DNA of 64,000 nt from Eledone cirrhosa (lineage: Eukaryota), in the NCBI GenBank assembly GCA_964016885.1, contig OZ024758.1, positions 10,292,001-10,356,000 on the forward strand, read 5' to 3'. The translations under genes were made by a program, and so were the position numbers. This document shows, in pieces, positions 5,756-5,948 of this stretch. Each line of letters starts with the position of its first letter. Position 1 is the first letter of the stretch. The notes below the pieces were generated by a model, which had not been told where the DNA came from, did no database searches, and saw nothing but the letters and a program-made list of their open reading frames with translations.

Positions 5756-5758
<3 letters not shown>

Positions 5759-5948
5759 GGAGTAAGTAAGACCCCGACGGCTGAGCTCAAGCCGTTTCGA
5801 CGGCTAATTCTGTACAGAATTAGCCGTCGAAACGGCTTGAGCTCAGCCGTCGGGGTCTTACTTACTCCTATTACCCACTCTACTACCCTAAGTATTGAGT
5901 ACTTTGGTGCGTTATGGTCCACCTGGTTCCTTACCACTTTTCCCTCGC
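5756..5948 (+). mobile_element. Palindrome+tail element family B (PLE pLTR-like) in (TA)n
   Basis: Perfect 116-bp palindrome at 5756-5871, then a ~77-nt tail with GAGTACTT (5897-5904). The arm contains the hammerhead 3' half GAAACGGC-TTGAGCTCA-GCCGTC. Confidence 0.85.

What the first reader, a model, noticed from the sequence alone, without database searches (positions are those of the whole stretch)
5756..5948. Both arms share copy-specific variants, so the palindrome is built at each insertion
At 5756 both arms read GGAGTAAGTAAGACCCC, while at 44162 both read GGAACGAGTAGGACCCC. Family E copies likewise differ from each other far more than their two arms do. The inverted arm always starts at the arm/tail boundary, which is a TA-like motif (CCTAT|, CTTATA|, CTAATA|, TAACTA|, TTTTAT|) abutting the (TA)n target, whereas inner ends vary. 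Inference: two priming events on one RNA (3' end, plus a fixed internal TA-microhomology site), i.e. a programmed twin-priming mechanism rather than TIR-based DNA transposition.
Basis: partly seen in the sequence, partly recalled or inferred. Interest (0 to 1): 0.72.

Follow-up and report, generated by a model that had tools for sequence, protein, structure and literature searches.

The report
Twin-primed Penelope retrotransposon stub
This hairpin-plus-tail is the clipped end of a very abundant Penelope-type jumping gene, a known layout, and the pattern across its copies indicates that it is likely built at each landing, when both cut DNA strands start copying the same part of the element's RNA at two fixed points and run off what is probably its capped start.

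Summary
In detail: 5756-5871 is a perfect 116-bp palindrome followed by an 80-nt tail, inside (TA)n. It is the end of a 3,531-bp tandem Penelope-like element whose protein has the Hydra-clade motifs, not a TIR transposon. The arm variants mark subfamilies (826 and 8,478 copies), not single copies. Building at insertion is supported: inner junctions are distinct in 44 of 44 copies of one subfamily, either arm can be longer (33 vs 31), and rare variants sit on both arms of single long insertions. Two corrections: both fixed ends are internal TAT sites of the tandem unit, neither is a plain RNA 3' end; and inner ends cluster at a predicted transcription start (TATA-like box, initiator, extra G in 14 of 17 arms). 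The window's junction recurs at 311 loci, likely because a self-complementary GTAC lies at that start. One tailed plus one tail-less arm is nearly obligatory (126 vs 1), and long arms were never paired with start-length stubs (0 of 20), so both primings likely use the same terminal repeat. Layout and two start sites are published; this two-end coupling was not in the papers I read.

The parts
5734..5758 (.). (TA)n target, left side
   Evidence: sequence; all 30 identical loci are flanked by TA runs
5756..5815 (-). tail-less inverted arm; inferred cDNA primed at site 1 (TTCCTAT end) and run to the RNA start
   Evidence: parent sequence in L136/L243
5812..5815 (.). GTAC shared by both arms; positions +2 to +5 of the predicted transcript; inferred annealing point of the two cDNA 3' ends
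   Evidence: parent reads TTCAGTACAG here; junction at 311 loci; 0 of 44 in the subfamily whose parent mostly reads GTCC
5812..5871 (+). sense arm = 5' end of the predicted transcript (pseudo-LTR part)
5829..5856 (+). 3' half of a type I hammerhead-like fold (GAAA, stem III, UC, stem I 3' strand); the 5' half is absent in this stub
   Evidence: parent folds as a three-way junction; 91.7% of cells paired, no compensatory change
5869..5871 (+). site 1: TAT at the base of hammerhead stem I, fixed outer end of tail-less arms
   Evidence: 200 alignment ends at this position; 116 of 132
5872..5951 (+). 80-nt tail ending in site 2 (TAT, 5949-5951); in tandem units it continues into the ORF
5949..6020 (.). 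(TA)n target, right side
44165..44367 (-). same family, CCTACTCGTT subfamily, junction with 16-nt filler
7553..7761 (-). same family, CCTACTCGTT subfamily; one arm difference
26281..26455 (-). same family; tail-less arm longer than tailed arm
57097..57236 (-). same family; tail-less arm 62 nt, tailed arm almost tail only
22724..22866 (+). same family; single tailed arm starting at the GTAC hotspot, no inverted partner
48641..49082 (-). family E: second element with the same layout, canonical hammerhead core in each arm, extra G at the junction
   Evidence: no ORF-bearing parent was sought
61886..62208 (.). family E copy that is tail-less on both arms (exception to the one-tail rule)

Best explanation
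The feature is a 5'-truncated head-to-head insertion of a Hydra-type Penelope-like retrotransposon, likely made when the element's enzyme cuts both strands of a (TA)n run and each cut end primes reverse transcription at one of two fixed TAT sites, 80 nt apart, in the same terminal repeat of the RNA. Shown: the parent element, the two fixed ends, their TAT overlap with the target, the one-tail rule, variable arm lengths. Inferred: a promoter inside the repeat starts a capped RNA 61 nt upstream of site 1, so priming on the 5' repeat makes both copies run off the cap (short hairpins, the majority), while priming on the downstream repeat gives two long, randomly truncated arms. The two cDNA ends are then joined by microhomology or short fillers, probably by host repair; here through GTAC. 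One RNA molecule copied twice, with the site-2 copy displacing the site-1 copy, is the simplest form (about 0.7 of this reading's weight).
For: Parent: 3,531-bp tandem units with a 784-aa open frame, RT and C-terminal GIY-YIG-like motifs. Ends: 200 and 245 alignment ends at the two sites, both TAT in the parent. Junctions distinct in 44 of 44 and 40 kinds among 54 copies. Tail-less arm longer in 33, tailed longer in 31, equal in 68 of 132; long arms carry kilobases absent from the partner. One tailed + one tail-less arm: 126 vs 1 double-tailed in position-ordered or unselected loci, about 42 expected under free choice; 15 of 15 resolved long pairs and 14 of 14. Long arms: 20 of 40 loci had an inverted partner, none of the 20 ending at 55-69 nt, one under 100 nt. 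Start site: TATA-like box 29-30 nt upstream of a T[CT]AGT initiator-like motif; G not in any parent precedes it in 14 of 17 arms that end there (p 0.006), and in 6 of 8 family E arms. Same source haplotype on both arms in 16 of 16 informative long pairs. Rare variants on both arms of one insertion: 2, 3, 5 and 8 places in the genome against 741 copies of that region. In vitro, a Penelope-clade protein cuts and extends both strands, starts at two internal sites bounding the tail and is predicted to be a dimer (PMC11167929).
Against: No biochemistry or RNA data for this element; the start site and cap are read from sequence only. 48 of 153 arms extend 1-8 nt or more beyond the predicted start. 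37 of 176 tailed ends have no short inverted partner and 20 of 40 long arms no partner at all. One double-tailed insertion (L157) and one double-tail-less family E copy exist. 2 of 114 short pairs have discordant arms (L184, L186). Rare shared variants could also come from an unsampled source locus or from conversion between arms. Most loci were picked by tail-bearing patterns, so double-tail-less insertions are undersampled (unselected set: 21 mixed, 0 and 0). PMC11167929 found initiation at sites not homologous to the cut DNA, whereas here both sites overlap the target by TAT.
Confidence: 0.7

Rival explanations
1. Both DNA ends are primed, but on two RNA molecules from the same source locus held in register by a protein dimer.
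For: Needs no strand displacement; explains arms that duplicate up to 2.6 kb; dimer predicted for a related protein (PMC11167929); haplotype concordance follows if one locus is expressed at a time.
Against: A symmetric dimer with two RNAs does not by itself give the one-tail rule (126 vs 1) nor 0 of 20 long-plus-stub pairs; a variant found only on the two arms of one insertion then needs a source locus missing from this assembly.
Confidence: 0.2
2. A single cDNA folds back on itself (self-priming, as proposed in PMC3846280) and copies itself to make the inverted arm.
For: Perfect no-loop junction here; near-palindrome at the turn; shared rare variants follow directly; some junction fillers are copies of nearby arm sequence.
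Against: The tail-less arm is the longer one in 33 of 132 short and in several kilobase-long insertions, holding sequence the tailed arm lacks; fold-back gives no reason to stop at site 1; extra G can sit on both arms of one junction (L151).
Confidence: 0.05
3. The 191-bp hairpin-plus-tail is a non-autonomous unit or MITE copied whole, with gene conversion keeping the arms alike.
For: At least 32 loci identical over 191 nt; 311 loci share the junction; 7 symmetric departures within subfamilies, a slight excess (48 and 30 of 1000 permutations).
Against: The junction occurs on at least three arm haplotypes and two tail types, two of which match separate long parents with GTAC; among 57 such copies no one-arm variant is shared except the L184/L186 patch; one-arm departures outnumber symmetric ones 116 to 7; 44 of 44 junctions differ in the other subfamily; one end has no terminal repeat.
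Confidence: 0.05

Closest known systems
Hydra clade of endonuclease-positive Penelope-like elements (Craig et al. 2021, PMC8557442; passages and section 11 read)
   Same: Single ORF with RW[KR], DKT, CxCX5C linker, CxxC and CxH motifs, C-terminal endonuclease, (TA)n targets, partial tandems, inverted 5'-truncated copy, tail at one end.
   Different: Unit 3.5 kb (described as generally under 3 kb); tail 80 nt (30-40 described for PLEs); hammerhead core mostly TTGANAA rather than canonical CTGANGA; the passages read give no mechanism for the inversion.
Poseidon element PAc in vitro (Frangieh et al. 2024, PMC11167929; parts 1-2 of 4 read: main text and start of methods)
   Same: Two internal RT start sites that bound the tail, near the 5' repeat/ORF junction; both strands cut and extended; AT-rich target; uncleaved ribozyme in the template (arms here run through the predicted cleavage site).
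   Different: Other clade; start sites reported as not homologous to the target and not differing by strand; inverted insertions are not discussed in the text read.
L1 twin priming (as described in PMC12016303; passages read)
   Same: Both target strands prime cDNAs of opposite orientation that are joined head to head.
   Different: L1 primes at the poly(A) end plus a variable internal site, in about 20% of insertions, with median 12-bp overlap; here both sites are fixed and internal, the arms duplicate the same region, and it is the usual outcome (132 of 176 tailed ends).
Adineta Penelope elements with inverted pLTR (PMC3846280; passages read)
   Same: Head-to-head inverted pLTR, palindrome at the junction, optional tail on one side.
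   Different: Explained there by self-priming, possibly on an antisense template; the arm-length data here argue against that.

Membership tests
EN+ Penelope-like elements | Single ORF with RT and GIY-YIG endonuclease | tested here: met
   784-aa open frame (716 from ATG) with FDIESYY, YRDDG, VIY-YIG motifs read by eye; Pfam and PDB gave no hit; 2,215 unnamed full-length homologues
EN+ Penelope-like elements | Tandem or partial-tandem units forming pseudo-LTRs | tested here: met
   3,531-bp period arrays
EN+ Penelope-like elements | Inverted 5'-truncated copy and tail at one end | tested here: met
   tail is 80 nt
EN+ Penelope-like elements | RT phylogeny with PLE references | not tested
Hydra clade | RWK-like, DKT, CxCX5C, CxxC and CxH motifs; no CCHH in the endonuclease core | tested here: met
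   LRWRT, SDKTG, CNCPDRSIC, CNLC, CKH against PMC8557442 section 11; absence of CCHH judged by eye
Hydra clade | Insertion into (TA)n | tested here: met
   170 of 176 tailed ends and 116 of 132 tail-less ends
Hydra clade | Canonical hammerhead ribozyme in the pLTR | tested here: inconclusive
   three-stem fold, 91.7% paired vs at most 54% when slid, but no compensatory change and a U3-A8 or C3-A8 core; no Rfam hit; canonical pattern absent; family E has the canonical core but no Rfam hammerhead hit either
Hydra clade | Length generally under 3 kb | tested here: not met
   3,531 bp; a loose trait, not diagnostic
MITE / TIR DNA transposon | Terminal inverted repeats at both ends and uniform length | tested here: not met
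   one end is a unique tail; lengths from 40 bp to several kb
L1-type twin priming | Priming at a poly(A) 3' end plus a variable internal site, arms largely non-overlapping | tested here: not met
   both sites fixed and internal, arms duplicate the same region; works like it, is not it
EN+ Penelope-like elements | Target-site duplication | not testable with these tools
   targets are (TA)n; no empty site recovered

The most novel reading that the evidence does not exclude
Penelope-like elements insert by obligatory two-end priming on one RNA molecule: a dimer feeds each cut strand to its own fixed start site in the same terminal repeat, the downstream copy displaces the upstream one, and the commonest product is a double run-off copy of the capped first 61 and 141 nt. 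Tail, inverted repeat and hairpin stubs would be one mechanism that removes the need for second-strand priming.
Probability: 0.5. Interest if true: 0.68.

Novelty: new member of a known kind. Interest (0 to 1): 0.48.

Why it matters
The element and its layout are of a known kind, so this is not a new system. How Penelope-like elements form their inverted repeats is stated as open in PMC8557442, and the one proposal I read (self-priming, PMC3846280) does not fit these copies. The counts here (one-tail rule, long arms never paired with start-length stubs, extra G at the inner ends, rare variants on both arms) turn that question into direct tests in the existing in vitro system. It also warns that such hairpins, thousands per genome, can be misfiled as MITEs.

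Tried and rejected
Canonical hammerhead pattern upstream of the arm: 0 matches; parents carry a variant core. Rfam on the window, on family E and on the parent: only simple-repeat or chance hits. Pfam and PDB sequence search of the ORF: none; the protein atlas gave no result. A variant seen on single arms of three loci was tested as a sign of two templates: only those three places exist, uninformative. My first idea that RT stalls in hammerhead stem II was dropped: family E turns at its own predicted start, about 70 nt upstream of its ribozyme core. One search used a mis-registered structure and is void; one search replaces it. No RNA holder listed. Laying assembled contigs on 5300-6400 did not resolve an empty site. 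None of the five rare shared variants is A-to-G on the sense strand, so editing as their source was not supported here. Place and sequence look-ups of earlier findings were empty. An earlier count said 83 nt and 17/17; the checked values are 80 nt and 16 of 16.

Full report
Observation. Window 5756-5871 is a perfect 116-bp palindrome followed by an 80-nt unique tail, between two TA runs. Five more copies lie in the window. Arms match by locus as stated. The variants are not copy-specific: 826 tailed copies carry the 5756 variant and 8,478 the 44162 variant; at least 32 of the 40 best-scoring loci are identical over 191 nt.

Parent. An unselected stretch (L061) held a 1.9-kb inverted insertion with the end of an ORF. 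Searching with it found tandem units of 3,531 bp with a 784-aa open frame. The protein shows RT motifs, a C-terminal VIY-YIG region and the motifs that PMC8557442 (section 11) lists for the Hydra clade; Pfam and PDB gave no hit, and 2,215 unnamed homologues exist. The window's own subfamily has long parents too (L136, L137, L243). In the tandem unit the arm is the 3' half of a hammerhead-like fold with a variant core (no compensatory changes, no Rfam hit), and the tail runs on into the ORF. Naming of the motifs as RT, GIY-YIG, TATA box, initiator and hammerhead core rests on my own knowledge.

Outer ends. Across 264 sequences, alignments end at two positions, 200 and 245 times (not deduplicated, includes selected loci). 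Both are TAT in the parent, 80 nt apart, so both overlap the target and both are internal to the unit. In loci taken in position order or unselected (176 tailed ends; the 30 identity-selected, 50 long-selected and 20 junction-selected loci left out), 132 have a short inverted arm and 116 of these start exactly at site 1. Pairing is one tailed plus one tail-less arm in 126 cases against one true double-tailed (a second call, L126, is two adjacent insertions); free choice would give about 42. Most of these loci were chosen by a tail pattern, so double-tail-less cases are undersampled; the unselected part gave 21, 0 and 0. Long insertions agree: 15 of 15 resolved of 18 (with ends), 14 of 14 resolved of 20.

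Inner ends. Junctions differ in 44 of 44 copies of one subfamily and fall into 40 kinds among 54 of the window's subfamily, 12 being the window's. Either arm may be longer (33 vs 31), and long tail-less arms hold kilobases the partner lacks, which simple fold-back cannot make. Ends cluster 55-69 nt from site 1. After an earlier AI note (e1-9550100) suggested the RNA start, I tested it: parents have a TATA-like box 29-30 nt upstream of an initiator-like A at -61, and arms ending there are preceded by a G absent from all parents in 14 of 17 cases (p 0.006 against an even A/G split; a few may come from the partner arm), as expected for a copied cap. Family E shows the same in 6 of 8 arms. 48 of 153 arms extend further, so the start may be spread or some short copies come from the downstream repeat. 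The window's junction is explained by the self-complementary GTAC at +2 to +5: it occurs at 311 loci, on at least three arm haplotypes, and without inherited one-arm variants among 57 copies apart from one patch in two loci.

One template region. In 18 long young pairs the arms share the source haplotype in 16 of 16 informative cases. Four rare variants present on both arms of one insertion were counted genome-wide: 2, 3, 5 and 8 places among 741 copies of that region; a fifth was not counted. The two-place variant is absent from the tandem unit lying between the two arms. Of 40 loci taken in position order for a long arm whose partner did not cover the same site, 20 had an inverted partner and none of these was a start-length stub (lengths 29 to 1,682 nt), although about 69% of short arms are. 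Both primings therefore likely use the same repeat copy. Gene conversion is not the main cause of arm identity: within subfamilies 116 departures are on one arm and 7 on both, a small symmetric excess; 2 of 114 pairs are discordant.

Mechanism. Shown: parent, fixed ends, one-tail rule, variable and clustered inner ends. Inferred: double-strand cut in (TA)n, priming at both TAT sites, run-off at a capped start or random truncation, end joining by microhomology or fillers, a single RNA with strand displacement. Two RNAs in register remain possible.

Prior work. Layout: PMC8557442 (passages, section 11) and PMC3846280 (passages). Two start sites, both strands, predicted dimer: PMC11167929 (parts 1-2 of 4). 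L1 twin priming: PMC12016303 (passages). Six searches (listings only for other papers) showed no paper deriving the inverted arm from coupled two-end priming; the library lacks most subscription papers and I read no supplements. 47 earlier notes of this scan hold the same words and the 8 shown reach a similar reading; they are not independent support.

Verdict. New member of a known kind; interest 0.48, carried by the mechanistic counts rather than by the element.

Noticed in passing
window 41474-42719: Large inverted duplication (569-nt arms, 210 nt unique and 100% identical) centred on a TA run, tail-to-tail around the microsatellite, unlike the head-to-head stubs.
   Followed up: no
window 61684-61823 and 62358-62497, also 57752-57895, 61406-61467: A third family with a CTGATGA...GAAA hammerhead-like core; two copies face each other tail-to-tail around the family E copy at 61886.
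   Followed up: partly
window 56040-56257 and 57340-57466: Further hairpin-plus-tail stubs of other families ending in TA.
   Followed up: no
L121, L122, L145 (G000:C1 4.9, 5.2 and 164.6 Mb): One arm variant exists at only three places in the genome, each on a single arm, all among the first 30 of 826 copies; unexplained.
   Followed up: partly
L184 and L186: One arm carries a patch, or arm plus tail, of the youngest subfamily: ectopic conversion, nested insertion or polishing error.
   Followed up: partly
L102 3226-3347 and parents in alignment A1: The predicted promoter (TATA-like box and initiator) lies inside hammerhead stem II, so the 5' repeat of the RNA would lack the ribozyme's first half; the core reads TTGANAA or CTGAGAA in an element with near-identical young copies.
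   Followed up: partly
window 3173-3342, 12581-12772, 18611-18807, 26734-26918, 31143-31364, 39077-39293 and others: A dispersed repeat of about 190 nt with at least 15 fragments, SINE-like in distribution.
   Followed up: no
window 28046-28425 and 30127-30507; 45444-45710; 46073-46690: A 381-nt inverted pair (98.7%) flanking a 200-230-nt tandem array; minisatellites of 34 and 49 nt.
   Followed up: no
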